The translations under genes and the position numbers were made by a program. From an uncultured Myxococcales bacterium (GTDB taxonomy: Bacteria; Myxococcota_A; UBA9042; CAIXZC01), in assembly GCA_903923815.1 (NCBI GenBank), contig CAIXZC010000445.1, positions 1 through 53,809 of the forward strand: a stretch of 53,809 bases of DNA, written 5' to 3'. This document shows, piece after piece, positions 10,921-35,033 of this stretch (position 1 is the stretch's first letter; each line of letters begins with the position of its first letter). The notes under the pieces were generated by a model, which searched no databases, was not told the origin of the DNA, and saw nothing but the letters and a program-made list of their open reading frames with translations.

Positions 10921-10985
10921 GACTGGACGCACGCCGCAACCCCCCAGAGCTTAGAAAATAGCACCGTACTTTGAGGCCTATGTAT

Positions 10986-11092
10986 CGGGGACGGAGGCGT
11001 TTGGCTGCGACCGGGGATGCGACCGGGGACGGAGGCGGTTGGCTGCGACCAGTTGTCCGGGGACGGAGGCGGTTGGCTGCGACCAGTTGTCC
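10986..11092 (+). repeat. REP-like tandem array (34-bp unit ggggacggaggcggttggctgcgaccagttgtcc)
   Basis: Perfect units at 11025-11058 and 11059-11092. A diverged unit lies at 10986-11024 and a decayed unit starts at 11093. The array shares the GCGACC..CGGGGACGGAGGC core with the cluster at 3159-3353, in opposite orientation. Confidence 0.85.
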
Positions 11093-11234: not shown

Positions 11235-11250
11235 TGGTACGGAAGTTGCT
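11235..11250 (+). promoter_or_regulatory. sigma-54 (-24/-12) type promoter TGGTACG-N4-TTGCT
   Basis: TTGGTACGGAAGTTGCTTG has GG and GC separated by exactly 10 nt. There is one mismatch to TGGCACG-N4-TTGCW. It lies about 36 nt upstream of the gspC ATG. Confidence 0.55.
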
Positions 11251-11284
11251 TGTTAGAAGCGCCGTACTTTTGTGGGCGAGGACC

Positions 11285-12271
11285 ATGGAACTGCTTTTCA
11301 AGAAGTACTTTTGGTTGCTGAATGCGGCGCTGCTGGTGCTGCTGGCTTTTCTGGTGGCGCGGCTGCTGGCCTCCTGGACCCGCTACGAGCTGCTGGCCCT
11401 TGCCCAGACCGACGCCACCGCCGAGACCCTGGTCGTGGAGGCCGGCGACAACTCCTTCCGCGCCGGGCAGTTTGGCAGCAAGGTCGATACCAGCCGCCGC
11501 CGGGAGCTGATGGAGAAGGGCCCCGAACTGCCCCCCGCCCCGGTGGAACTGGCCGAGCCCAAGGAAGAGACCTTTGAGGAGGCCGAGGCCGCCGAGGAGC
11601 CCACGGGCAGCCTCAAGCTGGAATACTTCGCCGCCGTCATCTCCTCCAACCCCAAGAACAGCCTGGCCTTTGTGAAGGTCGACGACGAGGAGGAGGGCCG
11701 CTGGGTTGGCCTGGGCGAGTCCCTGAAGGGCGAGACCCGGGTCGAGGAGATCACCCGCCGCCTCATCCGGGCCACCGATGGCACCGTCAAGTACCTGTGG
11801 CAGGGCAAGGAAGAAGAGGGCGAGCAGCCCACCGGTCTGCGCAAGCCCACCATCCCCGGCCGCCCCCTCGCCCCCACCCCCGAGCCCACCATGTCCGACG
11901 CTGGCGGTGACGACGCCGTCATCCAGGGCATCACCAAGGCCGGCCCCTTCGAGTACCACATCGACCGCGCCCTCATCGACGAGCAGCTGCAGGACCTGAC
12001 CAAGCTGGGCCGCCAGGCCCGGGTCATTCCCAACTACGACCGGGACTCCGGCGGCTACAAGGGCTTCAAGCTCATCGGCGTGCGGCCCAACAGCCTCTAC
12101 CGGGGCATCGGCATCCGCAGCGGCGACGTGATCATGCAAGTCAACGGGGAGGAGCTGAACTCCCCCAGCAAGGCCCTGGAGCTGTTTACCAAGCTCCAGA
12201 CGTCAAATCAGATTTCCCTGGATATCAAGCGTCGGGGCAAGAACGAGACCCTGATCTACAAGATCCAGTAG
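11285..12271 (+). CDS. gspC: type II secretion system protein C (PDZ-containing)
   Basis: N-terminal TM segment (FWLLNAALLVLLAFLVARLL), acidic linker, C-terminal PDZ-like domain (GFKLIGVRPNSLYRGIGIRSGDVIMQVNGEEL). It sits directly upstream of the secretin gene. Confidence 0.7.
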   Translation: MELLFKKYFWLLNAALLVLLAFLVARLLASWTRYELLALAQTDATAETLVVEAGDNSFRAGQFGSKVDTSRRRELMEKGPELPPAPVELAEPKEETFEEAEAAEEPTGSLKLEYFAAVISSNPKNSLAFVKVDDEEEGRWVGLGESLKGETRVEEITRRLIRATDGTVKYLWQGKEEEGEQPTGLRKPTIPGRPLAPTPEPTMSDAGGDDAVIQGITKAGPFEYHIDRALIDEQLQDLTKLGRQARVIPNYDRDSGGYKGFKLIGVRPNSLYRGIGIRSGDVIMQVNGEELNSPSKALELFTKLQTSNQISLDIKRRGKNETLIYKIQ

Positions 12272-12292
12272 CGCGTGTTGCAGGAGTACCCT

Positions 12293-15019
12293 ATGCAGCG
12301 AAAAGCAGCCATCCTCTGGACCCTCCTTCTTCTCCTGGTGCAGTCCGCCCCGGCTGGGGCCCAGGTGGTCCCCCTGGACCAGCCCGGCACCCTGAACCCC
12401 GGTCTGGCCGGCCCCAAGCGGGTCTTCAGCCCCAAGGTGGCGGGCGAGAACTCCGCCGAGGAGAACCGCGAGGCGGCCCCCATGAACGCCATCCAGCCCC
12501 CTCCCGGCCCTGGCGGCGGCCTGCCCATGGCCCCCGGAGCCCCCATGGTCCCCGGTGGTGCTGGCTTCATGCCCACCCCCGGCGCCGGCATGGCCCCGCC
12601 CCCGCCCGCCATCCCCGCGGCCCCTGCTGCTGCGGACAAGGACGCCATCAAGGTCACCGGCAATCAGGACGACATCGAGCGCAAACCCTCGGGCGTCACG
12701 GACATCCCCTGCCAGCCCATGGACCTGAACGAACAGGTCAGCCTGGACTTCAAGGAAGTGCCCCTGGATGACCTGATCCGCCTGATGAGCTGCTGGACCT
12801 CCAAGAACTTCATGCTGCAGGGCGGCTTCCAGGGCAAGACCATCACCCTCATGTCCCCCAACCCCGTCACCGTGGCCCAGGCCTACCGGGCGTTTCTCAG
12901 CGTCCTGCGCGTGCACGGCCTGGTCATCGTCCCCGCCGGCGCCTACTTGAAGATCGTCCCCGACGCCCAGGCCAAGCAGGAGCCCATCCCCATCATCAAG
13001 AAGGCCGGCGGCCTCCCCGAAGGCGACGAGATGGTCACGAAGATGGTTCCCCTGCAGCACGTCCCCGCCTCCGAGCTGACCCAGGTGCTGGACAAGTTCA
13101 AGGGCAAGGCCGGCGAGATCATCGCCTACGGTGAGGACCAGCTGATCATCACCGACCACGCCGTCATGATCGAGCGCCTGCTGGGCCTCATCAAGGAATT
13201 GGATATGCCCACGGACAAGGAGAAGATCTGGGTCCGTCAGGTGGAATACGCCGAGGCCGGCGAGCTGCTGAACGTGGTCACCGGCCTGTTCGGGGACACC
13301 GCCGGTGGCAAGAAGCTGCCCGGGGCCCCCGCCGCCAACCCCGCCGCCCGTCAGATCAAGGGCCGCCCCGTCCCCGGCATGGCCCAGCGCCCCGGCGGCA
13401 CGGACGCCACCGTGGTGGGCACCGAGGGCGAGGTCATTGGCGTGTCCAAGGCCCTCTCCGACGAGCGCACCAACCAGATCATCCTGGTGTGCAATCGCAC
13501 CACCTACCTGCGCGTGGACAAGCTGCTGCGCAAGCTGGACGTGCCCATCCCCGGCGAGGGCCAGATCCACATCATCTACCTGGAGAACGCGGACGCCGAG
13601 GAGATCTCCTCCACTCTGTCCAGCCTCACCTCCGGCGCCAAGGCCGCGACCTCCGGCGGCCCCCGCAAGGTCGGTGGTGGGCCCGCCGCCGCCGTGGGTG
13701 CCAGCGGCGCCGCGCTGTTCGAAGGCGAGGTCAAGATCACCGCCGACAAGGGCACCAACGCCCTGGTGGTGGAGGCCTCCCTCAAAGACTTCATGAGCCT
13801 GCGCAAGGTGGTGGACCTGTTGGACATCCGCCGCAAGCAGGTCTACGTGGAAGCCATCATCATGGAGATCATCTCCACGAAGGATCGCAACTACGGCGCC
13901 TCCAGCAGCGCCGGCACCAGCTTCAACATCGACGGCAACGAGGTGCCCCTCATGGTGGGCATGGGCGGCCTGGGCATGTCGGGTCTGGACACCACGCAGC
14001 TTACCCAGGGCGGCATGGCCGTGGGCATGCAGGGCCCGCTGCTGGACGTCTCCACCGGCGACACCGGCACCAGCACCAGCGGCAGCCTCTCCGTCCCCGC
14101 CTACGGCTTCATGTTGCAGGCCATCGCCAGCAACTCCGACGTGAACATCCTGTCCACGCCCCACATCCTCACCACGGACAACGAAGAGGCCGAGATCCAG
14201 GTGGGCAAGCAGATTCCCTACCAGTCCACCTCCATGGGCGGCCTCAGCTCCCTCATGGGCCTGGGCGGCATGTCGGGTCTGTCCGGCTACGGCACCAACA
14301 CCAGCACCTACGGCAGCTCGGGCTACTCCGGCATGGGCGGCCTGGGGGGCTACTCCAGCCTGCTGTCCGGCATGGGCGGCATGGGCCAGGTGCAGCGCAT
14401 CGACGTGGACCTGACCTTGAAGATCACGCCCCACGTGAACGAGTCCAACTTCGTCAAGCTGGAGATCGACCAGTCCATCGAGGACGTGGAGAGCATCGAC
14501 CGCAACCTGGGCCCCACCACCAGCAAGCGCAAGGTCAAGAACGTCGTGGTGGTGAAGGATCAGCAGCCCGTGGTCATCGGCGGCCTCATCCGCGATACCG
14601 AGTCCGAGGGCGTCAACAAGGTCCCCATCCTGGGCGACATCCCCCTCATCGGCATGCTGTTCCGCAACACCATCACGGCCACTGAGAAGAAGAACCTGCT
14701 GATGGTCATCATCCCGCACATCATCGAGGACCCCTCCGACCTGACCCGCATCCACCGCGAGCGCTCCGAGGAGATCCGCCGCTTTGCCGAGTACCTGGCC
14801 ACCAAGGAAAAAGAGAAGCACGGCATCGTCGACTACCAGAAGAAGAAGGGCGGCCTGGAGTCCATGAACCAGGTGGTGAACCGCACCAAGGCCGAGCGCG
14901 AAGAGCGTGAGCGGGCCCGGTTCGAGGGCACCAGCCTGGACATCGTGGGCCCCCCCGAGACCCACGAACTGGACTACGACCCGTCGGCTGACAAGGACTC
15001 CCAGGAAGGCCAACAATGA
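12293..15019 (+). CDS. gspD: type II secretion system secretin
   Basis: Signal peptide MQRKAAILWTLLLLLVQSAPAGAQ. Secretin N-domains and a C-terminal secretin core (VPILGDIPLIGMLF). It also has a Pro/Gly/Met-rich N-terminal spacer and a Gly/Ser/Met-rich insertion. AGGAG precedes the ATG at 12293. Confidence 0.9.
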   Translation: MQRKAAILWTLLLLLVQSAPAGAQVVPLDQPGTLNPGLAGPKRVFSPKVAGENSAEENREAAPMNAIQPPPGPGGGLPMAPGAPMVPGGAGFMPTPGAGMAPPPPAIPAAPAAADKDAIKVTGNQDDIERKPSGVTDIPCQPMDLNEQVSLDFKEVPLDDLIRLMSCWTSKNFMLQGGFQGKTITLMSPNPVTVAQAYRAFLSVLRVHGLVIVPAGAYLKIVPDAQAKQEPIPIIKKAGGLPEGDEMVTKMVPLQHVPASELTQVLDKFKGKAGEIIAYGEDQLIITDHAVMIERLLGLIKELDMPTDKEKIWVRQVEYAEAGELLNVVTGLFGDTAGGKKLPGAPAANPAARQIKGRPVPGMAQRPGGTDATVVGTEGEVIGVSKALSDERTNQIILVCNRTTYLRVDKLLRKLDVPIPGEGQIHIIYLENADAEEISSTLSSLTSGAKAATSGGPRKVGGGPAAAVGASGAALFEGEVKITADKGTNALVVEASLKDFMSLRKVVDLLDIRRKQVYVEAIIMEIISTKDRNYGASSSAGTSFNIDGNEVPLMVGMGGLGMSGLDTTQLTQGGMAVGMQGPLLDVSTGDTGTSTSGSLSVPAYGFMLQAIASNSDVNILSTPHILTTDNEEAEIQVGKQIPYQSTSMGGLSSLMGLGGMSGLSGYGTNTSTYGSSGYSGMGGLGGYSSLLSGMGGMGQVQRIDVDLTLKITPHVNESNFVKLEIDQSIEDVESIDRNLGPTTSKRKVKNVVVVKDQQPVVIGGLIRDTESEGVNKVPILGDIPLIGMLFRNTITATEKKNLLMVIIPHIIEDPSDLTRIHRERSEEIRRFAEYLATKEKEKHGIVDYQKKKGGLESMNQVVNRTKAEREERERARFEGTSLDIVGPPETHELDYDPSADKDSQEGQQ

Positions 15020-16746
15020 GCTCCAACAGCAGAGAAAGCGGCCTGCGCCTCTTCGGGCAGGTCCTGAAGGATCTGGGGCTGATCTCTGAGGCCGAGCTGG
15101 ACCAGGCCTTGAAGCTTCAGATAGAGAAGGGTGGGCGCCTGGGAGAGATCCTGGTGCAGCAGGGCTCCATCCAGGAGCAGGACGTGCCCCGCGCGCTGGC
15201 GGCCCAGTTCGGCATCGAGCACCTGGACAAGGTGGACCGGACGCGGCTGGACCCCTCCCTGGTGGAGGCCTTCCCCATCCAGTTCGCCAAGCAAAGCAAC
15301 TTCGCCCCCCTGTGGCGCAGCAAGGGCCGCGTCGTGGTGGCCGTGTCCGAGCCAGGTAACGCCCAGTTGCTGAACGACCTGGGCGTGCTGTTCGGCACCG
15401 AGGTGGTGCCCATGGTGGCCACCGCCCAGCAGGTGACGGATCTGGTGAACATCCAGTTCGACCGCAAGAGCGGCGCCGAGCAGGTCATGGGCGACATCGC
15501 CGACAGCGACGACCTGGACAGCATCGCCCTGGACCTGGAGGACAGCACCAAGGACCTGTTGGAAGAGGACGACGAGGCCCCCATCATCCGCCTCGTGAAC
15601 TCCATCTTCGGGCAGGCCATCAAGGAGAAGGCCTCGGACATCCACATCGAGCCCTACGAGCGGGACATCTCGGTGCGCTTCCGCAAGGACGGCGTCATGC
15701 ACGAGGTGCTGCGCATCCCCAAGCGCATCCAGAGCTCCGTCACCTCCCGAATAAAGATCATGGGCGGCCTGAACATCGCCGAGAAGCGGCGCCCCCAGGA
15801 CGGACGCATCCGCATTCGAATCGCCGGCCGTGACGTGGACATCCGACTGTCCGTCATCCCCATCGCCCATGGCGAGAGCATGGTGATGCGACTGCTGGAC
15901 AAGACCGCCGTGCTGCTGGATCTGCGGGACCTGGGCTTCTGGGAGGACGACCTCAAGAAGCTGTTCCACCTGATCGAGCGCCCCCACGGCATCCTGCTGG
16001 TGACGGGCCCCACGGGCTCGGGCAAGACCACCACGCTGTACGGCGCCCTGTCCCGGATCAACACCCCGGACAAGAAGATCCTGACCATTGAAGACCCCGT
16101 GGAATACCAGATCCCGGGCATCAACCAGATGCAGGTGAACGCCAAGATCGAGGTCACCTTCGGGTCCGCCCTGCGCGCCTTCCTGCGCCAGGACCCGGAC
16201 GTCATCCTGGTGGGCGAAATCCGTGACCGGGAGACCGTGGAAATAGCCATCCAGGCCTCCCTCACGGGCCACATGGTGTTCTCCACCGTGCATACCAATG
16301 ACGCGGCCTCCACCTTCACGCGCCTCACGGACATGGGCGTGGAGCCCTTCCTCATCTCCTCCGCGGTCATCGCCGTGCTGGCCCAGCGCCTGGTGCGCGT
16401 GGTGTGCCGGGAGTGCCGCCAGCCCGTGGAGGCTGGCCCCATCGAGCTGCAACAGCTTGGCATCACCGACGCCAATGGGCCCGTGACCATCTACAAGGCC
16501 AAGGGCTGCGAGGCCTGCAGCAACACCGGGTATTCGGGACGAAAGGGCATCTTCGAGCTGCTGGTGCTGACGGACTCCGTGAGGGATCTGGTCATGGCCC
16601 GCAGCGATGCCTCCAGGATCAAGCAGCAGGCGCTGCGCGAGGGCATGCACACCCTTCGTCAGGACGGCGTTCGGAAGATCCTCTCCGGGCTCACCACCAT
16701 GGAAGAGGTCTTCAGGGTCACGCAGGAAGACGTCATAAGGATTTAG
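15016..16746 (+). CDS. gspE: type II secretion system ATPase
   Basis: N-terminal T2SSE_N/MshEN-like domain, Walker A GPTGSGKTTT, Asp and His boxes, tetracysteine motif (CRECRQ...CEAC). ATGA overlap with gspD. Confidence 0.93.
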   Translation: MSSNSRESGLRLFGQVLKDLGLISEAELDQALKLQIEKGGRLGEILVQQGSIQEQDVPRALAAQFGIEHLDKVDRTRLDPSLVEAFPIQFAKQSNFAPLWRSKGRVVVAVSEPGNAQLLNDLGVLFGTEVVPMVATAQQVTDLVNIQFDRKSGAEQVMGDIADSDDLDSIALDLEDSTKDLLEEDDEAPIIRLVNSIFGQAIKEKASDIHIEPYERDISVRFRKDGVMHEVLRIPKRIQSSVTSRIKIMGGLNIAEKRRPQDGRIRIRIAGRDVDIRLSVIPIAHGESMVMRLLDKTAVLLDLRDLGFWEDDLKKLFHLIERPHGILLVTGPTGSGKTTTLYGALSRINTPDKKILTIEDPVEYQIPGINQMQVNAKIEVTFGSALRAFLRQDPDVILVGEIRDRETVEIAIQASLTGHMVFSTVHTNDAASTFTRLTDMGVEPFLISSAVIAVLAQRLVRVVCRECRQPVEAGPIELQQLGITDANGPVTIYKAKGCEACSNTGYSGRKGIFELLVLTDSVRDLVMARSDASRIKQQALREGMHTLRQDGVRKILSGLTTMEEVFRVTQEDVIRI

Positions 16747-16749
16747 CCC

Positions 16750-17976
16750 ATGCCCGTTTACCGCTACAAAGGCGTCAGCAACAAGGGGAAGGCCGTCAGC
16801 GGTCTGCTGGATGCGGACAACGTCAAGTCCCTCAAGGAGACCTTGCGGCAGCAGGGCGTTTTCCTCTCTGAGTACAAGCAGGACAAGGCCGAATCCCTGG
16901 CCTCCGAGGGCACGCGTCGGGGCTTCAAGATCTTCGCCGGGCGGGTGAACCCCCGGGAGGTCTCCGAGGTGACGCGGCAGATGGCCGTGCTGCTGCGGGC
17001 CTCCATTCCCGCCGTGGACACCCTGGCGGCGGTGGCCCGACAGGTGGAGAACCAGAACCTCCAGCGGGTGCTCAACGAGGTGCGCCGCGCTGTGACCGAA
17101 GGCGCCTCCATGGCCGCGGCCATGAGCCAGCACCCCAAGGTCTTCTCGGACCTGTACGTCAATATGGTGCGCGCGGGCGAGAGCTCGGGCACCCTGGACC
17201 TGGTGTTCGAGCGGCTGGCGGACTTCATGGAGAACCAGGTGGCCCTCAAGTCCAAGCTGACGGGCACCATGACCTACCCCCTCATCATGATCACCCTGGG
17301 CATCGGCATCGTGTCCCTGCTCATGGTGTTCGTGATTCCGCGAATGACCGCCGTGTTCTCCGAGATGGGGGCCCAGCTGCCCTTCGCCACGCGCGTGCTG
17401 ATCAACGTCTCCGACTTCATGCGGACCTACTGGTGGCTGGTGTTGGCGGGGGGCGTGGGGGGCGTGCTGCTGTTCAACCGCTGGAAGAACGGCACGGGCA
17501 AGCGGACCTGGCACACCTTCCTGCTGCGGGCGCCGGTGTTCGGCAGCCTGGTGCAGATGGTGGCCGTGGCGCGCTTCGCCAAGACCCTGGGGACGCTGCT
17601 GTCCAGTGGCGTGCCCATCATCGCGGCCCTGGGCATCGTGCGGCACGTGCTGGGGAACGTGATCCTGGACGAGCAGGTGGCCAATGCCATGGAGGCCGTC
17701 AAGGAGGGCTCGTCCCTGGCCGAGCCGCTGCGCAAGTCCGGGGGCTTTCCGCCCATGGTGACCCACATGATCAGCGTGGGCGAGGAGAGCGGCGAGTTGG
17801 AACAGATGTTGGAGAACGTGTCCCGGGCCTATGAGGTGCAGGTGAACGCCAAGATCACGGTGCTCACGGCCCTCCTGGAGCCCATCATGATTGTCCTCAT
17901 GGGTGTGGTCATCGGCTTCATCGTGTTCGCGGTGCTCATGCCCATGCTGCAGATGAACGAAGTGCTGACCAAGTGA
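16750..17976 (+). CDS. gspF: type II secretion system inner-membrane platform protein
   Basis: About 408 aa with the duplicated GspF/PilC domain architecture and three TM segments. Positioned after gspE. Confidence 0.9.
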   Translation: MPVYRYKGVSNKGKAVSGLLDADNVKSLKETLRQQGVFLSEYKQDKAESLASEGTRRGFKIFAGRVNPREVSEVTRQMAVLLRASIPAVDTLAAVARQVENQNLQRVLNEVRRAVTEGASMAAAMSQHPKVFSDLYVNMVRAGESSGTLDLVFERLADFMENQVALKSKLTGTMTYPLIMITLGIGIVSLLMVFVIPRMTAVFSEMGAQLPFATRVLINVSDFMRTYWWLVLAGGVGGVLLFNRWKNGTGKRTWHTFLLRAPVFGSLVQMVAVARFAKTLGTLLSSGVPIIAALGIVRHVLGNVILDEQVANAMEAVKEGSSLAEPLRKSGGFPPMVTHMISVGEESGELEQMLENVSRAYEVQVNAKITVLTALLEPIMIVLMGVVIGFIVFAVLMPMLQMNEVLTK

Positions 17977-17999
17977 CGAAACGGATGGAGGTGCGCCAA

Positions 18000-18434
18000 A
18001 TGGATACCAGAAGAGAGATGCTCAAGGCGGCGGCGGCGAGGGGCCAGGGGGGCATGACCCTCATTGAGATCATGGTGGTCATCGCCATCATCGGCATCGT
18101 GGCCAGCGCCGTGGGTTACGGCGTGACCCGCTACTTCGGCCAGGCGCGAATCGACGCCTGCAAGGCCCAGTTGGACAACATCTCCAATCACCTGGAGATG
18201 TACCTCTACGAGAAGGGCGAGTACCCCACGTCCCTCAGCGAGCTGACCAAGACCGAGAAGGGCAAGGGCAAGGCCATCCTCAAGCGAAGCCAGCTCAAGG
18301 ACCCCTGGAAGCAGAAGCTGGACTACAGCGCCGAGGGCGAGGCCTTCAAGCTGTGCTCGGGTGGTCCCGACAAGCGCCTGGGCGGGGATGACGACATCTG
18401 CTACGGCGCGGACGAGCCCGGCGACGAGGAGTGA
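18000..18434 (+). CDS. gspG: type II secretion major pseudopilin
   Basis: Prepilin-type motif GQGG|MTLIEIMVVIAIIGIVA with Glu at +5. GGAGGTG lies 7 nt upstream of the ATG at 18000. The GTG at 17973 is an alternative start. Confidence 0.88.
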   Translation: MDTRREMLKAAAARGQGGMTLIEIMVVIAIIGIVASAVGYGVTRYFGQARIDACKAQLDNISNHLEMYLYEKGEYPTSLSELTKTEKGKGKAILKRSQLKDPWKQKLDYSAEGEAFKLCSGGPDKRLGGDDDICYGADEPGDEE

Positions 18435-18437
18435 CCT

Positions 18438-21857: not shown

Positions 21858-21862
21858 CCCCC

Positions 21863-24088: not shown

Positions 24089-24098
24089 GAGGTACACC

Positions 24099-26605: not shown

Positions 26606-26627
26606 AGCCTTTGATGGAGGGTCGGCC

Positions 26628-29600
26628 GTGGTGGGCACCGCAGGAGAGACGGCTGCTTCAAACGGCGGAAGCCAGCGGGCGCTGAGGCGCAGGCTGCTGC
26701 TGATCTCCCTGCGCTGGGCCCTGGTGCGTATGGCGCTGTTCGGGGCCTTCTCCACGGCGGCGGCCATGGTGGTGCTGTTGGCGGCCCTGTTATTGGATCA
26801 TTTCCTGCCCGGTCTGGGCGGCATTGTCTATCCACTTCTGATGATCGTCTTTGGGGCTGGTGCGGCCTATCTGCTGGTGGTCAAGCCTCTGTTCCGGGGC
26901 TTTGGCACGGTGCGGCAGGCGGTGCGCATCGAGGAGGCCTGCGGGGCCCGGGGCTGTATCCTGCCGGCGGCCGAGCTGGTCAAGCGCCAGGGGGAGGGCG
27001 GTGGGGGCGCGGACTCGGGCGAACTGGTGGAGCTGGCGGCGGCCCAGGGGCTGGACTTCCTGGACAGCCTCAAGCCCTGGGAGCTGTACCCCTGGCGGCA
27101 TCTGGCGGCCCTGGCCTGGGTGAACCTGGGACTGGTGGTGGCCCTGACGGGCGCGGTGACCTTGAGTGGCCAGGCCCGGGAGGCCATCGTGGCCCTGTTT
27201 GCCGGAGAGGACAGGGCCAGCCTGGAGCGGGTGCCCCCCAGTGGGGACGAGCGCGCGCTGGTGGCGCCTCCCTCCCCCAAGCTCCTGCCCGCCTGCCGAA
27301 AACTGGATGTCACCGTGATGGATCCCAGGTATCTGGGGGCCTCGTCACGCATTGTGCCTCTGAACGGTCACCTGAAGATCCTCACGGGCAGCACCCTGCG
27401 CTTCAGTTGCCTGGCGCCGGCCCGCAGCCCGGGCGTGAAGATCGACCGCAAGCGCGAGGATGGCACCCGTCTGGCCCAGCCCATGGAGCGGGTGGAGACC
27501 ATCGGGGATGAGGCTCTGTTCACCAGCGAGCTGACCTTCGTGGAGCCGGAGGAGCTGCGCCTTTACCGGGAGCTGGACCTGGCGGGGGCCAAACTGTGGC
27601 ACCAGGGCGTGTGGGTGCTGCACCGGGTGGTGGATGCGGCGCCTGAGTGCTGGCTTTCCCAACCCGGCGGCGAGGGGCAGCTCAAGGAAGGGCAGCACCT
27701 TACCATCAGCCTGGACGCGAAGGATGACTGGGGCCTGTCCCGGGTGGTCCTGAAGTACCGGGTGCCGGAGATTGAAGAGGAGTTCCTGGAGATGGAGCTG
27801 GCGGCGTCCCTCAGTGGGCGGGACCTGCGCTTGGAGGACCGGGTGTCGGTGGATTCCTTGGGCGCCGAGCCGGGGCAAAGCGTGGAGCTGTTCGTGGAGG
27901 TCTTCGACATCCACGAGCCGGGGCCGGGGGTCTGTCGCAGCGAGCGGCGCCTGTTGCAGGTCCAGGGCGGCAGTGACAACGCGGAGGTCCTGGTGGAGGC
28001 CGTGGCGGCGCTGCGGGACTCGTGCATCGACGGGCTGGCGCGGGCGCTGCATCTGCCCCCCTCGGGGAGCCTGCTGCGGACCCTGGCCCAGGTCTATGTC
28101 GGGGAGGAGTTGGAGTACCTGGCGCGGACGGCCCGGCAGACCGTGGAGCGGTTGGTGGCCTCGGCCCGGGTGGAGCAGGAGGAGCTGACGCGGCTGGCCC
28201 AGTTGGCGGCGCGCCTGGAGGAGCTGCTGGGGCAGCGTCGGGGCTGCTGGTTCTCCGTGGGGCGGCGGCTGCGGGACTGCGTGGAGGAGAATACGGCGGC
28301 CCTGGTGGCCGAGTTGACGGCGGATGTACCCATCGTGACGGATTCCTTCGACAGCATGCTGGGGTCCCATCTGGTGGGGCGCATCAAGCAGCTTGAGGTC
28401 ATGCGCCGGGAGCTGAGCTCCATCATGCTCAAGCCAGACGTGGGGGCGCGGCGGCAGAAGGAGGCCCAGCGGCAGGTGTCCAGGCTTATCTACCACGGCA
28501 AGCGGCTGGCGGAGCTGGAGACGCGGCTGCGTACGGCGGTGCCGGAGGAGCTGGCCTGGCCCTCTGCCCAGGTGACGCAGGGGAAGGCGGGCTCGGTGGA
28601 CTCGCTGCTGGTGCAGCTTGAGGACCTGAAGGCCAGCCTGGGGGCGGAGGGTGACCGCAGCGCCCGCATGAAGGGGCTGGACCTGGTGGGGCGCGCCATG
28701 GACGAGCTGTCCCGCAGCGCCGAAGGGGACTACTTCCGCACCATGAGCCGCAGCCTCAAGGGCTTCCAGCGGCGGCTGTCCGCGCTACGCCTGGAGTACC
28801 TGAAGCTGGGGGACGCCATCCGGGCGGCCCAGAAGCAGCTTGGGCAGTTCACGGCAAGCTGGGAGAAGCGCCTGGAGCAGTCCTTCAAGGGGCGCCTGCT
28901 GCGGCGCTGGCGGGAGGTGCGACGGGTGCTGCGCATCACGTCCTACGAGGGGGCGTCGCTGGACGAGCAGGCCTACCTGCCCCTGGAGCGCCAGGGCGTG
29001 GTGGAGCAGAAGAAGCACCTGCGCCTGCTGGCCGATGCCTTCCAGTCGGGGCGGCTGGAGGATGCCCTGGGGCTGCTGGCGGAGGCCGAGGAGCAGCTTC
29101 AAGCCATGCGCTATTCGCTGGAGCTGTCCCTGCGCTATTCGGACGAGGGCAAGGACCGGGTCCGGGCGGAGCTGGGGCGCATCCGGGGGCTGCAGCGCAA
29201 CGTGGAACTGCTGCGCAAGGAGACCTCGGGGATGGTGCCCCTGCGGCGCAGCATGCTCAAAGGTGCGGACCGGGAGCTGCTGGCCAGTCTGGGGGCCTCC
29301 GCGGCGGAGCTGCAGGAGCTGGCCCGAGAGCTGGACGGGGGCCTGAAGGACATGGAGGCCATGTACCCGGCGCTGTTCGTGCGCCTGGAGCAGTTGTTCA
29401 CCCAGACCCGCAAGGCGTTGGCCGAGTGGGGCCCCATGCTGGACCAGATGGATCTGGAGGGGGCGCGGGGGCTGGTGGCCTACGCGCTGGACAGCATCAC
29501 CGAGGCCCTGGCGGTCATGGATGAGGCGTCCAAGGGCGGGCGGCGGGGCGGGCTGGTCATCGCCGGGGCCGGTGGCCTGGGGGGCACGGGGGTGTTCACC

Positions 29601-29720
29601 AAGGGGGGCGAGGTGCCCCTATCGCGGGTCACGGAGATGTTGCAGTCGCTGGGCTCCCGCGGGCTGTCGCCGGCGGTGGAGCAGGTGGCCCGGGACTATT
29701 ACAGGAGGCTGCTCAAATGA
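26628..29720 (+). CDS. large membrane-anchored coiled-coil protein, DUF4175-like
   Basis: A GTG at 26628 lies 8 nt after GGAGG. Two-TM hairpin (MALFGAFSTAAAMVVLLAALLL / IVYPLLMIVFGAGAAYLLVV) followed by RQAVRIEEACG...AAELV. There are several hundred aa of Leu/Arg/Glu-rich helical sequence and a C-terminal ...VARDYYRRLLK. The ORF-track start at 26358 overlaps gspN out of frame and is unlikely. Confidence 0.55.
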   Translation: MVGTAGETAASNGGSQRALRRRLLLISLRWALVRMALFGAFSTAAAMVVLLAALLLDHFLPGLGGIVYPLLMIVFGAGAAYLLVVKPLFRGFGTVRQAVRIEEACGARGCILPAAELVKRQGEGGGGADSGELVELAAAQGLDFLDSLKPWELYPWRHLAALAWVNLGLVVALTGAVTLSGQAREAIVALFAGEDRASLERVPPSGDERALVAPPSPKLLPACRKLDVTVMDPRYLGASSRIVPLNGHLKILTGSTLRFSCLAPARSPGVKIDRKREDGTRLAQPMERVETIGDEALFTSELTFVEPEELRLYRELDLAGAKLWHQGVWVLHRVVDAAPECWLSQPGGEGQLKEGQHLTISLDAKDDWGLSRVVLKYRVPEIEEEFLEMELAASLSGRDLRLEDRVSVDSLGAEPGQSVELFVEVFDIHEPGPGVCRSERRLLQVQGGSDNAEVLVEAVAALRDSCIDGLARALHLPPSGSLLRTLAQVYVGEELEYLARTARQTVERLVASARVEQEELTRLAQLAARLEELLGQRRGCWFSVGRRLRDCVEENTAALVAELTADVPIVTDSFDSMLGSHLVGRIKQLEVMRRELSSIMLKPDVGARRQKEAQRQVSRLIYHGKRLAELETRLRTAVPEELAWPSAQVTQGKAGSVDSLLVQLEDLKASLGAEGDRSARMKGLDLVGRAMDELSRSAEGDYFRTMSRSLKGFQRRLSALRLEYLKLGDAIRAAQKQLGQFTASWEKRLEQSFKGRLLRRWREVRRVLRITSYEGASLDEQAYLPLERQGVVEQKKHLRLLADAFQSGRLEDALGLLAEAEEQLQAMRYSLELSLRYSDEGKDRVRAELGRIRGLQRNVELLRKETSGMVPLRRSMLKGADRELLASLGASAAELQELARELDGGLKDMEAMYPALFVRLEQLFTQTRKALAEWGPMLDQMDLEGARGLVAYALDSITEALAVMDEASKGGRRGGLVIAGAGGLGGTGVFTKGGEVPLSRVTEMLQSLGSRGLSPAVEQVARDYYRRLLK

Positions 29721-31161
29721 ACGGCGCACTCCTGCTGATGTTGGTGTTGGCTTTGGCGGTCCCGGGGGGGCGCAGCCCGGTGGCGCGCGCCGACCAGGCC
29801 CTGGAGGACTGGGACCGGGCGACCTTGAGCAGCCTGGCCCGGGGCGGTGGGGATGGCAGCGTCTACGGCGCGGCGGCCCTGGCCCTGCTGGAGGGGCGCT
29901 TTGGGGATGCGGAGGCGGCGGAGGGGGCGGCGGACAAGCTGGCCCCGGAGGAGGCCCAGAGGGTGCGCGCGCTGGCCTCCCAGGCGGCGGCCTTCACCCA
30001 CGTGCTGGGCAAGCTGGCTCAGGCCCAGACGGATGGCCTGCAGGTGTTTGCGCCCAAGGGACAGTTGGAGGTGCTGGCGGGGCTGGCCCAGGAGCTGGCC
30101 ACGGCCCACCGGGCCACGGGATTGCCGGGGCCGGAGCAGGGGCGGGTGCTGGTGGTGTTCGTGGCCCAGGAGGAGGACCTGGCGGCCCTGGCGGGCCTGG
30201 AGACGGTCCAGGTCCAGAACTCGGGCCTGCGGGGCCTGGGGCGCTGGGGGGCCGTGGTGCTGCTGTCGCCGTCGGCCCTGCCCTGGGGCTACGACTGGCA
30301 GCGGGTGCTGGCCCACGAGCTGCTGCACCTGGGGCTGCACGGTCGCTGCGGGGACGCCCCGTTGTGGTTTGAAGAGGGTTATGCCCACCTTGCGGACACC
30401 TTCTGGCGGACCGGCGCGCCGGCCCTTGCGGCCGAGGCCGAGCGGGGACTGCTGGCCTTGGCCTTGAAGCGCAAGGCCCAGCGTTCCTGGCCCGAGCTGG
30501 AGCGTTCTTTTGCGGCCGTGGCCCAGCCCTGGGAGGCCGCGGTGGCCTTCGCCCAGGCGGGGGCGGCGGTGGCGCAGTTGGTGGAGCGAGGTGGCCCCCA
30601 GAGCCCCGCTGCGGTCTGCGCGCTGGCCCGACGGGGGGTGCAGTTCGAGGTGGCCCTGGCCCGGGTCTGGGGCGGCAGCTACCTGTGGTTCAAACGAGTG
30701 GCGGAGGCCCGCTGGCAGAAGAAGCTGGTGCGCGCCGAGGGGCAGCTTGCCAGGAAGAAGTTCGGGCTGGACGGCGCGGACAGCGAGTTCCTGGCCGGCC
30801 AGCTCGGTGATATGCTCTGGGGCCGCGGTCACGGGGAGGCGGCCCTGGCCACCTTCCAGGCCTCCGCGGGGACGGAGCCAAGCCCCGAGCTGGCCTATCG
30901 CATGGCCCTGCTGCTGGTGAAGAAGGGCGAGCCCGGGGCGGCCCTTCAGCTCACCACCCGGGCGCTGGAGGCCTGGGGTCCCAATGCCGGGCTGTATCTG
31001 GCGGGGGCCCTGGCCCAGGAAGCCCTGGAGGATCCAGGGGCGGCGCTGGCCCTGGCAGAGCTTGCCCACCGTCAGCAGCCCTTCTCCTTGAAAATTGCCC
31101 GCCTGCGGGCCAGACTCCAGGCACCGGCGGCGGCACCGCAGACCACGAAAGGATCCACTCC

Positions 31162-31165
<4 letters not shown>
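29717..31165 (+). CDS. secreted HExxH protein (peptidase MA-like) with TPR-like C-terminal region
   Basis: Signal peptide MNGALLLMLVLALAVPGG. LAHELLHLGLHG followed by WFEEGYAHL resembles the Peptidase_MA-type HExxH...E arrangement. Helical repeat-like C-terminus. ATGA overlaps on both sides. Confidence 0.5.
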
Positions 31166-32166
<1,001 letters not shown>

Positions 32167-32176
32167 CGGAGAGGTC

Positions 32177-33118
32177 ATGTCCCCAACCAAAGACAGGGCT
32201 GCCCTGCTGCCCGCCGAACTGGAGAGGAAGCTGGCCGGCTTTCGCTTCTATCGGCACGCCCCGACGGGGGGGCGGGTGCTGGGGCCCCACCGGGGGACGG
32301 GGTCGGGCTCCAGCCTGGAGTTCGCGCGGCACAAGGAGTACTCGCCCGGGGACGACCTGCGGCGGGTGAACTGGAAGCTGTTCGCGCGCTCGGATCGCTA
32401 CTACGTGAAGGAGTACACGCGGGAGCTGGGGGCGGAGGTCCTGATGGTGGTGGATTGCAGCCCCTCCATGCGGACGCCGGGGGCCCCCACCAAGCTGGAG
32501 GCGGCCTCGCGGCTGTGCGCGGCGCTGTCCTGGGTGATGCTGCACCAGGGGGACAAGGTGGGGCTGCGCCTGGAGGATCGGGGCACCGTGCCCGGCAACC
32601 TGCGCCCCGACCGGGACCCCGCCCACTTCCTGCGGGTGGCCAAGATCCTGGGCCAGGGCCTGGAGGGCTTCCCCGAGGACTACCCGGGCTTCCCCGCGGA
32701 CGACGGCTCCCGGGAGCGCACCGTCCTGTTCTTCTCGGATTTTCTGTTTTCGACGCAGCACTTCGTGAAGCGGCTGTCGGAGCTGCGCAAGGGTCGCAAC
32801 CGGGTCATGCTGTTCCATGTCATCGACCCCCTGGAGTACAGGCCCGCCCTGGTGGACGGGGTGCCCGACTGGTCCCAGGCCCACGCCGACGCCTTCCCCT
32901 ACGCGGAGGCCGTGCGCTTCCGCTGCCCGGAGACGGGGCGCAGCATCCTGCTGGACGGTCGCACCATGCGCGCCGAGTACCTTCAAAGCTTTCGGCACTT
33001 CATGGAGGAGCTGCGGGGGGCCGCCGAGGAGTATCTGACCGAGTACGTCCCCATGAGCACCGCAGAGGACTTCGAGGCCTTCCTGTTCCGCCTGCTGGGG
33101 AGGGCCCGCCGTGTTTGA
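32177..33118 (+). CDS. DUF58-family protein (vWA-like, MIDAS-type DxSxS present)
   Basis: RVNWKLFARSDRYYVKEYTRE signature, then VVDCSPSM (DxSxS). Canonical position after MoxR. Confidence 0.85.
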   Translation: MSPTKDRAALLPAELERKLAGFRFYRHAPTGGRVLGPHRGTGSGSSLEFARHKEYSPGDDLRRVNWKLFARSDRYYVKEYTRELGAEVLMVVDCSPSMRTPGAPTKLEAASRLCAALSWVMLHQGDKVGLRLEDRGTVPGNLRPDRDPAHFLRVAKILGQGLEGFPEDYPGFPADDGSRERTVLFFSDFLFSTQHFVKRLSELRKGRNRVMLFHVIDPLEYRPALVDGVPDWSQAHADAFPYAEAVRFRCPETGRSILLDGRTMRAEYLQSFRHFMEELRGAAEEYLTEYVPMSTAEDFEAFLFRLLGRARRV

Positions 33119-35033
33119 GCACCCCTGGCATCTGCTGGCCGCCGTGGCCGCTCTGGTCCCCATCATCGTTGGCGCCGCGCGGTACTACCGGCTTCGCACG
33201 GTGGACCTGCGGGCGCCCGTGTTCCTCATGTCCCGGGGGCGGGCCTTCTGGCGCTTGGCGCGGCTGCGGCGCACGGCCCTGGCGGTGACCCGGATTGCCT
33301 TGGTGCTGGTGCTGGCCACGGTGTTCGCGTCCCCCGTGCGTCCCCCCTGGACACCCGACTCCGACGCCGCCCTCAGCCAGGAGCGTCTGCTGGTCCTGCT
33401 GGATGACTCTCTGCCCATGGCCTGGAGCGATGGCACCACCACGCTGCTGCGCCGGGCGGTGGACGCGGCCCGGGGGGCAGCCGAGCAGTCCGGCGCCACC
33501 CGCTTTGCCCTGAAGACCGCCTGCCGCCTGGAGGGCCCCCCGGTGTTCCTGGATAAGGCGGGCTTTCGTGTGGCGCTGGAGGGTGTGAGGCAGGCCCACG
33601 GGACCTGTCCTGGGGTGGAAGAGCCCAGCGCGCTGCTGGCCGCCGCGGGCACCGGCACCCGGGTCGTCTACGTGGGCCTCTGCTCGGCCGCCAGTCGCCC
33701 CTTGGCGGGCCTGGAGCGGATCTGCCTGCCGCCGCCCTCGGAGCCCCAGGGTCGGGGCCTGCTGGAGGCGCGTTGCCAGTCCCAGCGGCGCTGCGCGGTA
33801 ACGGTCCACGGCTATCCCCCCGAGGGCCCCGGCCATCTCACGGCCTCCTGTCGGTCCGAGCCCACCCAAGCGGTGGAGTTCGACTTCGTCTTCAAGGGCA
33901 CCAACCCCCTGCTGCTGGACCTGGAGGTCCCCCTGCGTTGCAAGGATCCGGTGCTGCTGTTCTCGCTGCCGGAGGATGCCTTCACGCCGGATGACAGTCT
34001 GGAGGTGGTCATGCCCGAGGAGCGCCCCCGAATGGTGCTGCTGGTGGATGGTTCGGTGGGTTCCCGCCCCGGCGGTGGGCCCACGGCCTATCTGCAGCAG
34101 GTCATCCTGGCGGCAAAGGATCGGGGGGCCAACCTGCTGCTGCGGGTCCTGGGGCAGGACGAACTGCCGGCCCAAAAGCTGGGCGAGGCAGATCTGATCA
34201 TCCTGGCGGATCCTCGGTTGCCCCGTCGGCACATCACCGAACGTCTGCTGCGGGCGGTGGAGGAGGGGGCCTCGCTGGTCATCACCGCCGGTCCCAACCT
34301 TGCCCAATGGCCCGACGGTCAGGGGCTGATCCCGGGTGGTTGGAAGTCCGAGCCCGTCAGCGACGCCGCTGTGGCCCTGGGTAGCGTGAAGGGGCGCCGG
34401 GGAGACCGGGCCGGTTCCAAGGCGTCGGAGCTGCGGGGCCCCAGCTTCGAGAAGCGTTTCCTGCCCTTTGGGTTCAACTCCGACACCACGGAGCGGCTGC
34501 TGGCCTTCTCCGACGGTGCCCCCGCGGTGCTGGCCTGGAACCATGGCCGGGGGCGGGTGTTCTTCTGGCTGTTCTCGGCCGATCTGGCCTTTGGCGAGTA
34601 TCCCCTGGACCCGGCCTTCCCGGCCCTGATGGAGGCACCCATGGCCCGCCAATCCGGGGTGGCCGCGTCTCTGACCCACTGTTGGAGCGGCCAGCCCTGC
34701 CCGGCGGCGGACCTGGACTCCCCCTGGGAGCTGCGCTCTCCCCACGGCTTCCCCGTGACGGAGCTCATGCAGGCCCTTCGGGAGGGCAACCCCATGGTCC
34801 CTCCGGGCGTCTACCAGCGTCTGCGGGCCGGCTTCTTCGAGCCCGTCCTGGACCTGCGCCAGTCCCCCGCCACCCTGGTGGGCGCCGTCTCCCGGGGCCT
34901 GCTGGCGACCTCTCGGGACAGCGCCCCGCACCTGGACAGCGCGCCCCCCGTGGCCCCCCCGCTGCCTCTGCATTTTCCCTTGTTGCTGTTGCTGCTTGGC
35001 CTGCTGCTGCTGGAGACGAGGCTGTCGCGGTAG
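33111..35033 (+). CDS. BatA-N-terminal (double-transmembrane) domain protein
   Basis: The N-terminus FEHPWHLLAAVAALVPIIVGAARYYRLR...PVFLMS matches the aerotolerance-regulator N-terminal/two-anchor pattern. A second TM follows and there is a C-terminal hydrophobic anchor LLLLLLGLLLLETRL. The MIDAS-like site is degenerate (DDSLP). Confidence 0.65.
   Translation: MFEHPWHLLAAVAALVPIIVGAARYYRLRTVDLRAPVFLMSRGRAFWRLARLRRTALAVTRIALVLVLATVFASPVRPPWTPDSDAALSQERLLVLLDDSLPMAWSDGTTTLLRRAVDAARGAAEQSGATRFALKTACRLEGPPVFLDKAGFRVALEGVRQAHGTCPGVEEPSALLAAAGTGTRVVYVGLCSAASRPLAGLERICLPPPSEPQGRGLLEARCQSQRRCAVTVHGYPPEGPGHLTASCRSEPTQAVEFDFVFKGTNPLLLDLEVPLRCKDPVLLFSLPEDAFTPDDSLEVVMPEERPRMVLLVDGSVGSRPGGGPTAYLQQVILAAKDRGANLLLRVLGQDELPAQKLGEADLIILADPRLPRRHITERLLRAVEEGASLVITAGPNLAQWPDGQGLIPGGWKSEPVSDAAVALGSVKGRRGDRAGSKASELRGPSFEKRFLPFGFNSDTTERLLAFSDGAPAVLAWNHGRGRVFFWLFSADLAFGEYPLDPAFPALMEAPMARQSGVAASLTHCWSGQPCPAADLDSPWELRSPHGFPVTELMQALREGNPMVPPGVYQRLRAGFFEPVLDLRQSPATLVGAVSRGLLATSRDSAPHLDSAPPVAPPLPLHFPLLLLLLGLLLLETRLSR

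What the first reader, a model, noticed from the sequence alone, without database searches (positions are those of the whole stretch)
11235..35033. Complete gspC-N T2SS runs as one tightly coupled array into a MoxR/DUF58/BatA-N/DUF4175-like module
Seen: from the sigma-54-like promoter at 11235 to the stop at 35033, all 17 genes are on the + strand. Junctions are either stop/start overlaps or gaps of at most about 23 nt. The overlaps are ATGA at 15016, 19070, 19894, 24752, 29717 and 31162, and 7-8 nt at 20616 and 33111. The gspN/next-gene junction (26605-26628) has no hairpin or T-tract; it carries GGAGG 8 nt before a GTG. Established: gspC-N is a canonical T2SS gene set. MoxR AAA+ / DUF58 / BatA-type genes form widespread Bat-like operons whose molecular function is still unassigned. 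Inference: this physical and apparently translational coupling suggests the MoxR module is a dedicated accessory of this secretion machine, for example in assembly, quality control or envelope anchoring, rather than a chance neighbour. I am not aware of this linkage having been described.
Basis: partly seen in the sequence, partly recalled or inferred. Interest (0 to 1): 0.72.

Follow-up and report, generated by a model that had tools for sequence, protein, structure and literature searches.

The report
T2SS operon fused to MoxR module
A complete type II secretion gene set runs without a break into a five-gene MoxR ATPase envelope module; this join recurs across one uncultured myxobacterial clade, but relatives keep the two parts apart, so it looks like a lineage-specific operon fusion rather than a proven secretion accessory.

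Summary
Seventeen + strand genes (11285-35033) are joined by 4-13 nt overlaps or gaps of at most 22 nt. They sit behind the window's only sigma-54-type motif, and no terminator-like structure lies at the gspN/next-gene junction.

The last five genes are:
- a divergent DUF4175-family membrane protein (X1)
- MoxR
- DUF58
- a BatA-type protein

The same gspN-X1-X2-MoxR-DUF58-BatA order recurs in 11 other loci of uncultured Myxococcota, with GspN identity down to 30% and X1 down to 24%, while the downstream flanks differ. That is more than inertia.

The module is nevertheless autonomous. Three loci inside the clade and two Anaeromyxobacteraceae-like loci carry the same five genes with no T2SS upstream. 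Three to four T2SS loci end at gspN. Trees place these split forms as sisters of linked forms, and a split pair from one metagenome has matching tetranucleotide composition.

Best reading: an ancestral operon fusion that co-expresses a general Bat/Cmd-like envelope module with the T2SS. It is tight in the window's subclade and was broken elsewhere without loss of either part. A dedicated T2SS role is possible but unproven.

The parts
10985..11090 (+). Three tandem 34-nt direct repeats. Candidate upstream activator sites for the sigma-54 promoter (inferred).
   Evidence: One search found 3 copies at 82-100% identity, 145-250 nt upstream of the -24/-12 motif. An NtrC-type activator gene lies at 5483-7072.
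11235..11250 (+). Sigma-54-type -24/-12 promoter motif, TGGTAC-N5-TTGCT.
   Evidence: the only match in 53.8 kb, against 0.07 expected. It lies 35 nt before the gspC ATG.
11285..12271 (+). gspC (T2SSC-like region plus PDZ domain).
   Evidence: T2SSC 7e-5 and PDZ_2 1.6e-5, both below their cutoffs. The in-frame ATG at 11285 was read.
12275..15019 (+). gspD, the secretin.
   Evidence: Secretin 2.8e-42, Secretin_N 9e-26, GspD N0 1.6e-14.
15016..16746 (+). gspE, the ATPase.
   Evidence: T2SSE 2.7e-145.
16750..17976 (+). gspF, the platform protein.
   Evidence: T2SSF 2e-64.
17973..21857 (+). gspG, H, I, J and K: the major and minor pseudopilins.
   Evidence: T2SSG 7.6e-14, N_methyl motifs in G, H, I and J, T2SSJ 5.6e-9, T2SSK_1st 3e-4.
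21845..24088 (+). gspL, a PilM/FtsA-like protein of 747 aa.
   Evidence: PilM_2 3e-13. TIGR01175 5.6e-19.
24096..24755 (+). gspM.
   Evidence: T2SSM 4e-5, below its cutoff. The position is conserved in all related loci.
24752..26605 (+). gspN: long Leptospira-type form with an N-terminal TM helix, four invariant Cys and an acidic tail.
   Evidence: TIGR04411 8.5e-10, below its cutoff. Alignments. TM prediction.
26606..26627 (+). The 22-nt gspN/X1 junction, carrying GGAGG. No terminator-like or promoter-like site.
26628..29720 (+). X1: divergent DUF4175-family membrane protein of 1030 aa, with 3-4 N-terminal TM helices.
   Evidence: No direct Pfam hit. hhalign to a DUF4175-bearing homologue gives probability 99.6 and E 1e-23 over 904 columns. 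Eight of nine distant homologues pass the PF13779 cutoff. TM helices.
29717..31165 (+). X2: predicted periplasmic gluzincin-like HExxH protein with C-terminal TPR repeats.
   Evidence: Invariant H200, E201, H204 and E220 (E219 nearly invariant) in 13 orthologues, plus a signal peptide. Peptidase_MA_2 matches in 8 of 13, best 1e-13. TPR matches to PDB chains.
31162..32166 (+). MoxR-type AAA+ ATPase.
   Evidence: AAA_3 5e-62, AAA_lid_2 6e-18.
32177..33118 (+). DUF58 protein.
   Evidence: DUF58 5e-24.
33111..35033 (+). BatA-type membrane protein: two N-terminal TM helices, a VWA-like middle region and a C-terminal TM helix.
   Evidence: TIGR02226 at 21.2 bits, below its cutoff. Among the 10 aligned sequences, 9 match PF07584 and 7 match VWA_2; the window copy matches neither. 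TM helices.

Best explanation
The region is a composite operon.

The first part is a sigma-54-driven T2SS gene set (gspC-N). In an ancestor of this uncultured Myxococcota clade it became joined to a pre-existing, self-sufficient five-gene envelope module. That module comprises a DUF4175-family membrane scaffold, a periplasmic HExxH/TPR protein, the MoxR AAA+ ATPase, the DUF58 adaptor and a BatA/VWA membrane protein.

In the window's subclade the join is only 22-32 nt, with a ribosome-binding site and no terminator. The module is therefore most likely read through from the T2SS promoter and co-expressed with the secretion machine (inferred, not shown).

The module itself most likely works like other Bat/Cmd-type MoxR systems. 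A cytoplasmic MoxR hexamer, coupled through the VWA-type partners DUF58 and BatA, would remodel or mature membrane- and periplasm-facing partners (X1, X2) that support cell-envelope integrity. All of that mechanism is inferred from family knowledge.

Its tie to the T2SS is regulatory and clade-specific rather than obligatory. Relatives run the same module from their own promoter, and run the same T2SS without it next door.
For: Junction geometry and the absence of terminators come.

The same gene order occurs in L001/2, L003, L007, L008, L009, L011, L012, L013, L018 and L019, and by gene sizes and Pfam hits in the P0029 locus. The genes after BatA differ between these loci.

Free modules:
- L014, L015 and L017 have an upstream gene on the opposite strand and a TACAAT element before X1.
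- L016 and L029 have a divergent ECF sigma/anti-sigma pair.

T2SS loci that end at gspN with unrelated or convergent downstream genes: L004-6, L021 and L024.

Trees:
- The gspN of L004 (T2SS only) is sister to that of L018 (linked), 93% bootstrap.
- The module of L014/15 (free) is sister to that of L018, 97% bootstrap.
- The window subclade has 100% support, and all six of its informative loci are linked.

L017 (free) and L024 (T2SS only) come from one metagenome and have a tetranucleotide correlation of 0.98.

Junction spacers are 22-32 nt in the window subclade. In the subclade where breaks occurred they are 63-140 nt, and three of them have lower GC than their locus. L012 has a promoter-like site in its spacer.

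GC3 is uniform across both parts of the array (0.84-0.95), which argues against recent foreign origin.

Published phenotypes of MoxR/DUF58/VWA operons are envelope or stress phenotypes, as reviewed in PMC5700661.
Against: - No transcript data exist. A promoter inside the 3' end of gspN cannot be excluded, because myxobacterial promoters often do not fit the sigma-70 consensus scan.
- Adjacency conserved over such divergence, with variable flanks, is also what a true functional partnership would produce.
- Assigning split loci to the same genomes rests on tree congruence and composition, not on closed genomes.
- The trees are neighbour-joining trees of single proteins or short concatenates.
- The envelope-maintenance mechanism is borrowed from distant Bat/Cmd systems whose own mechanism is unresolved.
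Confidence: 0.6

Rival explanations
1. Dedicated accessory. The MoxR module is a specialised assembly, quality-control or anchoring device for this T2SS. MoxR/DUF58/BatA would energise the system from the cytoplasm, X1 would span the inner membrane, and the X2 peptidase/TPR protein would act on T2SS parts or cargo in the periplasm.
For: - Adjacency is conserved in 12 loci across deep divergence while downstream flanks change.
- Junctions in the window subclade are tight and carry a ribosome-binding site.
- All module proteins except MoxR and DUF58 are membrane or periplasmic proteins.
- There is precedent for an ATPase-containing T2SS accessory pair, GspA/GspB (ExeAB). This comes from my own knowledge; GspB is treated in PMC9239104, which was listed but not read.
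Against: - The module is free-standing in 3 loci within the clade and 2 outside it.
- T2SS loci of the same type lack it.
- Congruent trees and composition suggest that both parts persist unlinked in the same lineages.
- X2's catalytic motif and the module architecture are identical in linked and free forms.
- No T2SS-specific domain is present in any module protein.
Confidence: 0.2
2. Mere neighbours. The module is transcribed from its own promoter embedded in the 3' end of gspN, and adjacency persists only by descent, with neither regulatory nor functional coupling.
For: - The module has its own promoter in free loci.
- L012 keeps a promoter-like TTCAAA-17-TACAAT site in the gspN-X1 spacer, 1 found against 0.2 expected.
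- The C-terminal tail of GspN is low-complexity and poorly conserved, so it could tolerate embedded signals.
Against: - No sigma-70-like site lies within 300 nt upstream of X1 in the window or in its five closest linked relatives.
- A 22-nt gap with no terminator means that transcripts from upstream would continue into X1 anyway.
- Downstream flanks have been reshuffled while this junction was kept.
Confidence: 0.15

Closest known systems
Bat / Cmd-type MoxR operons: Bacteroides fragilis batI, Borrelia bb0170-0176, Leptospira bat, Rhizobium leguminosarum cmdA-D (RL3499-RL3502)
   Same: They share a MoxR (AAA_3) ATPase followed by DUF58 and by membrane proteins with the BatA N-terminal double-TM region and a VWA domain, plus a TPR component. 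Reported phenotypes are envelope or stress phenotypes with no resolved mechanism (PMC5700661).
   Different: Here the module opens with a ~1000-aa DUF4175-family protein and an HExxH/TPR protein. It lacks BatB, BatD and BatE, and it sits directly behind a T2SS operon.
Free-standing DUF4175 - Peptidase_MA_2/TPR - MoxR - DUF58 - BatA operon of Anaeromyxobacteraceae-like genomes (L016 from GCA_047602405.1; L029)
   Same: The same five genes occur in the same order. X2, MoxR, DUF58 and BatA are detectable by tblastn, and X1 by profile comparison.
   Different: No T2SS lies upstream. Instead an ECF sigma / zf-HC2 anti-sigma pair is transcribed divergently.
Canonical proteobacterial gspC-O T2SS operons, and the Myxococcus xanthus T2SS needed for MYXO-CTERM proteins
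   Same: The gspC-N gene content is the same, with secretin, ATPase, platform and five pseudopilins.
   Different: Here GspL is PilM/FtsA-like, GspN is ~600 aa and of the Leptospira type, and there is no gspO in the array. The promoter is sigma-54-type, and five extra genes are appended.
GspA/GspB (ExeA/ExeB) T2SS accessory pair
   Same: It is a precedent for an ATPase-containing inner-membrane accessory complex that helps a T2SS secretin assemble. This is from my own knowledge, not tested here.
   Different: There is no homology. MoxR is an AAA_3-type ATPase, and no GspA-type AAA_22 plus peptidoglycan-binding architecture or GspB domain was found in the module.

Membership tests
Type II secretion system (Gsp) | Outer-membrane secretin GspD with N0 and secretin domains | tested here: met
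   Secretin 2.8e-42, Secretin_N 9e-26, N0 1.6e-14.
Type II secretion system (Gsp) | GspE ATPase and GspF platform protein | tested here: met
   T2SSE 2.7e-145, T2SSF 2e-64.
Type II secretion system (Gsp) | Major pseudopilin GspG plus minor pseudopilins H-K, with the N-methylation motif | tested here: met
   T2SSG, N_methyl in G/H/I/J, T2SSJ. T2SSK_1st is weak (3e-4).
Type II secretion system (Gsp) | Assembly-platform proteins GspC, L, M (and N) | tested here: inconclusive
   All four hits fall below the curated cutoffs: T2SSC 23 bits, T2SSM 24 bits, TIGR04411 38.5 bits, and GspL matches PilM_2 instead. Position and order are conserved in 15 or more related loci.
Type II secretion system (Gsp) | Prepilin peptidase GspO/PilD | tested here: not met
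   None of the 17 genes in the array is a prepilin peptidase. The rest of the genome is not available.
Bat-like MoxR operon | MoxR-proper AAA+ ATPase (AAA_3 plus AAA_lid_2) | tested here: met
   5.3e-62 and 6.2e-18.
Bat-like MoxR operon | DUF58 gene next to MoxR | tested here: met
   DUF58 5e-24. It starts 10 nt after the moxR stop.
Bat-like MoxR operon | BatA N-terminal double-TM domain plus VWA domain | tested here: inconclusive
   The window copy scores TIGR02226 at 21.2 bits against a cutoff of 23.05 and has no Pfam hit. Among the 10 aligned sequences, 9 match PF07584 and 7 match VWA_2; the window copy is the exception. Two N-terminal TM helices are predicted.
Bat-like MoxR operon | BatB, BatD and BatE components | tested here: not met
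   No such domains occur in the five module genes. The TPR function may be supplied by X2.
DUF4175 (PF13779) | Match to the PF13779 profile | tested here: inconclusive
   X1 and its 10 clade orthologues have no direct hit. The clade profile aligns over 904 columns with a PF13779-positive protein (probability 99.6, E 1e-23). Eight of nine distant phmmer hits pass the PF13779 cutoff.
MA-clan (gluzincin) metallopeptidase, Peptidase_MA_2 | HExxH zinc-binding motif plus a downstream Glu ligand | tested here: met
   H200, E201, H204 and E220 are invariant and E219 nearly so in 13 orthologues, linked and free alike.
MA-clan (gluzincin) metallopeptidase, Peptidase_MA_2 | Profile match above the curated cutoff, and peptidase activity | tested here: inconclusive
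   The window copy scores 16.1 bits against a cutoff of 32.4. Eight of 13 orthologues match, best 1e-13. The fold could not be checked because the single-sequence model has pLDDT 47. Activity cannot be tested here.
GspA/GspB T2SS accessory | GspA-type ATPase with a peptidoglycan-binding domain, and a GspB partner | tested here: not met
   No such domains occur in any of the five module proteins.

The most novel reading that the evidence does not exclude
In this uncultured Myxococcota clade the MoxR module has been recruited as a true T2SS assembly or quality-control device. It would be an AAA+-powered, DUF4175/BatA-anchored complex whose periplasmic HExxH/TPR subunit matures T2SS components or cargo. 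That would give the long-orphan Bat/Cmd-type MoxR operons their first defined client machine.
Probability: 0.15. Interest if true: 0.75.

Novelty: new variant of a known kind. Interest (0 to 1): 0.42.

Why it matters
MoxR/DUF58/BatA operons are among the most widespread bacterial gene clusters with no known client, and T2SS accessory factors outside Proteobacteria are barely explored.

A clade in which the two are fused into one operon, next to sister lineages where they are split, is a natural experiment. It shows where to test whether this MoxR system serves a secretion machine or general envelope upkeep.

The fused arrangement also replaces the module's own promoter, which in Anaeromyxobacteraceae-like relatives lies beside a divergently transcribed ECF sigma/anti-sigma pair, with a sigma-54-driven T2SS promoter upstream.

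If the link is only regulatory, the finding is a modest comparative-genomics note.

Tried and rejected
- A word-indexed homologue search with X1 gave only one hit, at 84% identity.
- The exhaustive search with X1 found only 38 clusters. X1 evolves fast, so context had to be reached through gspN and MoxR instead.
The single-sequence model was unusable (pLDDT 47, pTM 0.28), so no fold search was run.
- PDB sequence searches with profiles of X1 and BatA found nothing meaningful. For X2 they found only TPR matches.
- Searches for literature linking T2SS with MoxR/DUF58 returned nothing. The myxobacterial T2SS papers I opened do not mention the downstream genes. The Rhizobium cmd paper (PMC3133104) is not held.
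- I considered recent horizontal acquisition of the module. I rejected it because GC3 is uniform across both parts; the higher overall GC of the module comes from codon positions 1 and 2.
- I considered that L004's downstream genes (130, 437 and 366 aa) might be a diverged module. I rejected this: they show no similarity to any module protein or to the other T2SS-only loci.
- The Marinimicrobia MoxR context (L028) has only MoxR-DUF58, so the five-gene form is not universal.
- The genome-contig scan reached only this clade (7 loci). Cultured Myxococcota such as Myxococcus were therefore not sampled on the T2SS side.

Full report
**1. The observation**

Six-frame ORF listing and translation show 17 consecutive + strand genes from gspC to a BatA-type gene. 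The ORF holding gspC opens at 11174, and the most likely start is the in-frame ATG at 11285. The BatA-type gene ends at 35033.

- ATGA stop/start overlaps at 15016, 19070, 19894, 24752, 29717 and 31162, and a GTGA overlap at 17973.
- Overlaps of 7 nt and 8 nt at 20616 and 33111, and 13 nt at 21845.
- Gaps of 3 nt after gspC, gspE and gspG, and 10 nt before DUF58.
- A 22-nt gap between the gspN stop (26605) and the GTG at 26628, which is preceded by GGAGG.

The close relative L007 conserves the GTG and the GGAGG but not an alternative in-frame ATG at 26616.

The array ends six bases before the stop of a convergent TonB-dependent receptor gene (35039-37309, - strand).

The motif TGGTACGGAAGTTGCT at 11235-11250 is the only TGGYAC-N5-TTGCW match in the window, against 0.07 expected. 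Three tandem 34-nt repeats lie 145-250 nt upstream of it, and an NtrC-type sigma-54 activator gene lies at 5483-7072.

Terminator-like hits within the array are at the level of shuffled sequence, and none sits at a gene junction. The 100 nt around the gspN/X1 junction fold no better than shuffles (z = 0.07).

**2. What the genes are**

Pfam and NCBIfam identify the first twelve genes:
- GspD, E, F, G and J are clear matches.
- H and I carry pseudopilin N-methylation motifs.
- C, K, M and N match their families below the curated cutoffs.
- GspL is a 747-aa PilM/FtsA-like protein.
- GspN is about 600 aa and of the Leptospira type.

No prepilin peptidase is in the array.

The last five genes:
- **X1 (26628-29720, 1030 aa).** It has 3-4 N-terminal TM helices and no direct Pfam hit. 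A profile of 11 orthologues aligns over 904 columns with an Anaeromyxobacteraceae protein that does hit DUF4175 (hhalign probability 99.6, E 1e-23). Eight of nine distant homologues from an exhaustive search pass the PF13779 cutoff. 'DUF4175-like' is therefore justified.
- **X2 (29717-31165).** It has a signal peptide, an invariant HExxH with E220 invariant and E219 nearly so in all 13 orthologues, and C-terminal TPR repeats. I read it as a predicted periplasmic gluzincin-like peptidase.
- **MoxR and DUF58.** Both are clear.
- **The last gene (33111-35033).** It has two N-terminal TM helices and one C-terminal TM helix. The window copy matches only TIGR02226, just below its cutoff. Among the 10 aligned sequences, 9 match the Pfam BatA domain and 7 match VWA_2 weakly.

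GC3 is uniform (0.84-0.95) across both halves. The module's higher overall GC comes from codon positions 1 and 2, so nothing points to recent foreign origin.

**3. Is the linkage conserved?**

GspN homologues are rare in the databases. I gathered loci through their contigs, a GTDB genome scan, a metagenome scan, and contexts of the closest MoxR orthologues. I then mapped the window proteins onto all loci with tblastn.

- **Linked.** The order gspL-M-N-X1-X2-MoxR-DUF58-BatA is present in L001/L002, L003, L007, L008, L009 (partial), L011 (partial), L012, L013, L018 and L019. By gene sizes and Pfam hits it is also present in the P0029 locus. That makes 11 loci besides the window. Identity to the window falls to 30% for GspN, 24% for X1 and 52% for MoxR. 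These loci share no homologue of the window's downstream genes, and the genes after BatA differ among them. The junction has therefore outlasted neighbouring rearrangements.
- **T2SS without the module.** L004/5/6, L021 and L024 carry the same T2SS, but gspN is followed by unrelated or convergent genes. L025 probably belongs here too, although only 1.3 kb downstream of gspN is available.
- **Free module inside the clade.** L014, L015 and L017 carry all five module genes. They have no gsp gene in the 2-5.5 kb of upstream sequence held (5.5 kb in L014 and L017) and an opposite-strand gene immediately upstream. A conserved TACAAT element precedes X1, and in L017 it forms TTGACG-18-TACAAT.
- **Free module outside the clade.** L016 (Anaeromyxobacteraceae) and L029 carry DUF4175 - Peptidase_MA_2/TPR - MoxR - DUF58 - BatA, divergent from an ECF sigma / zf-HC2 anti-sigma pair.
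- **Other.** A Marinimicrobia MoxR has only DUF58 beside it.
- **Uninformative.** The contig ends too soon in L010, L020, L022 and L023.

**4. History of the join**

Neighbour-joining trees with bootstrap give the following:
- The window subclade (WIN, L007, L001, L003, L020, L008, L009) has 100% support. All six of its informative loci are linked.
- The split forms fall in the other subclade. The gspN of L004 (T2SS only) is sister to that of L018 (linked) at 93%.
- The module of L014/15 (free) is sister to that of L018 at 97%.
- The group {L012, L018, L014, L015, L017} has 100% support on the module tree.

L017 (free module) and L024 (T2SS only) come from the same metagenome and have a tetranucleotide correlation of 0.98. 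L014/15 against L021 gives 0.97. For comparison, the two near-identical loci L014 and L015 give 0.99.

The simplest reading is that the fusion arose at the base of the clade, since the outgroup is free. It was then undone at least once, and probably twice, with both parts kept. That last step is inferred from congruence, not from closed genomes.

Junction length tracks this pattern. It is 22-32 nt at normal GC in the window subclade. It is 63-140 nt in the subclade where breaks occurred, and three of those spacers have lower GC than their locus (0.45-0.54 against about 0.61). L012 carries a promoter-like TTCAAA-17-TACAAT site in its spacer, 1 found against 0.2 expected. No junction has a terminator-like site.

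**5. Mechanism**

Shown:
- The gene content.
- The predicted topology: MoxR and DUF58 are cytoplasmic, X1 and BatA are membrane-anchored, and X2 is exported.
- An intact zincin motif in X2.
- Tight junctions.
- Clade-wide synteny with documented exceptions.

Inferred:
- In the window organism the sigma-54 promoter upstream of gspC drives a transcript of about 23.8 kb through all 17 genes.
- The module acts as other MoxR/VWA systems are thought to act. ATP-driven remodelling by MoxR would be coupled through DUF58/BatA VWA-type adaptors to membrane and periplasmic partners.
- Published phenotypes for related operons are envelope-integrity and stress phenotypes, with no resolved mechanism (PMC5700661).

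The module runs from its own promoter in sister lineages, and the T2SS exists without it. I therefore rank 'co-regulated general envelope module' (0.6) above 'dedicated T2SS accessory' (0.2) and 'unrelated neighbours with separate transcription' (0.15).

**6. Comparison with known systems, and novelty**

Both halves are known kinds. One is a Gsp T2SS with myxobacterial/Leptospira-type L and N proteins. The other is a Bat/Cmd-like MoxR operon of the DUF4175 - MA-peptidase/TPR - MoxR - DUF58 - BatA subtype, which also occurs in Anaeromyxobacteraceae-like genomes.

What is new is the fused arrangement and its conservation across an uncultured clade. No paper in the searched library holds T2SS, MoxR and DUF58 together. 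The myxobacterial T2SS papers I opened do not discuss genes downstream of gspN.

The module is not homologous to the GspA/GspB accessory pair. I class the finding as a new variant of a known kind.

**7. Limits**

- There are no transcript data.
- All relatives are MAGs or metagenome contigs.
- Cultured Myxococcota were not reached on the T2SS side, because the gspN patterns found only this clade.
- The X2 fold could not be modelled.
- The trees are simple distance trees.

Noticed in passing
window 5483-7072 (+) and 10985-11090: An NtrC-type sigma-54 activator gene (Response_reg + Sigma54_activat + HTH_8) lies about 4 kb upstream of the gsp promoter. Three tandem 34-nt direct repeats lie 145-250 nt upstream of the -24/-12 motif. 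Together they look like an activator and its binding sites for the T2SS operon.
   Followed up: partly
window 29717-31165: Gene 14 of the array encodes a signal-peptide protein with an invariant HExxH...EE motif and C-terminal TPR repeats. I read it as a predicted periplasmic zinc peptidase. It is conserved in both T2SS-linked and free modules.
   Followed up: yes
window 24752-26605 and 21845-24088: GspN is unusually long (617 aa). It has four invariant cysteines, a GYYWMHC motif and an acidic low-complexity tail. GspL is a 747-aa PilM/FtsA-like protein rather than a canonical GspL.
   Followed up: partly
L016 4068-5176 and L029 2075-3144: In Anaeromyxobacteraceae-like genomes the free five-gene module sits back to back with an ECF sigma factor and a zf-HC2 anti-sigma factor. 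This hints that the module belongs to an envelope-stress regulon there.
   Followed up: no
L017 17542-20987; L018 19398-20984; L019 14024-17660: Downstream of the module, several loci share a ~316-aa protein followed by a TLC-family ATP/ADP translocase; L017 and L019 also have an Lnb_N protein after it. This holds whether or not the T2SS is linked upstream, so the module stayed in place while the T2SS side changed.
   Followed up: no
window 10168-10920 (+): A Phenol_MetA_deg-family outer-membrane channel gene lies directly upstream of the gsp promoter region.
   Followed up: no
window 3373-4560 and 4557-5696 (+); 47827-50301 (-): Two tandem phosphofructokinase genes overlap by 4 nt. Separately, there is an 824-aa fusion of a pyridine-nucleotide disulfide oxidoreductase with rhodanese, TusA and DsrE domains.
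   Followed up: no
window 26628-29720: X1 has only 38 homologue clusters at E<=1e-3 among 1.84 billion representative proteins. It is a very fast-evolving member of the DUF4175 family, even though its gene position is conserved.
   Followed up: yes
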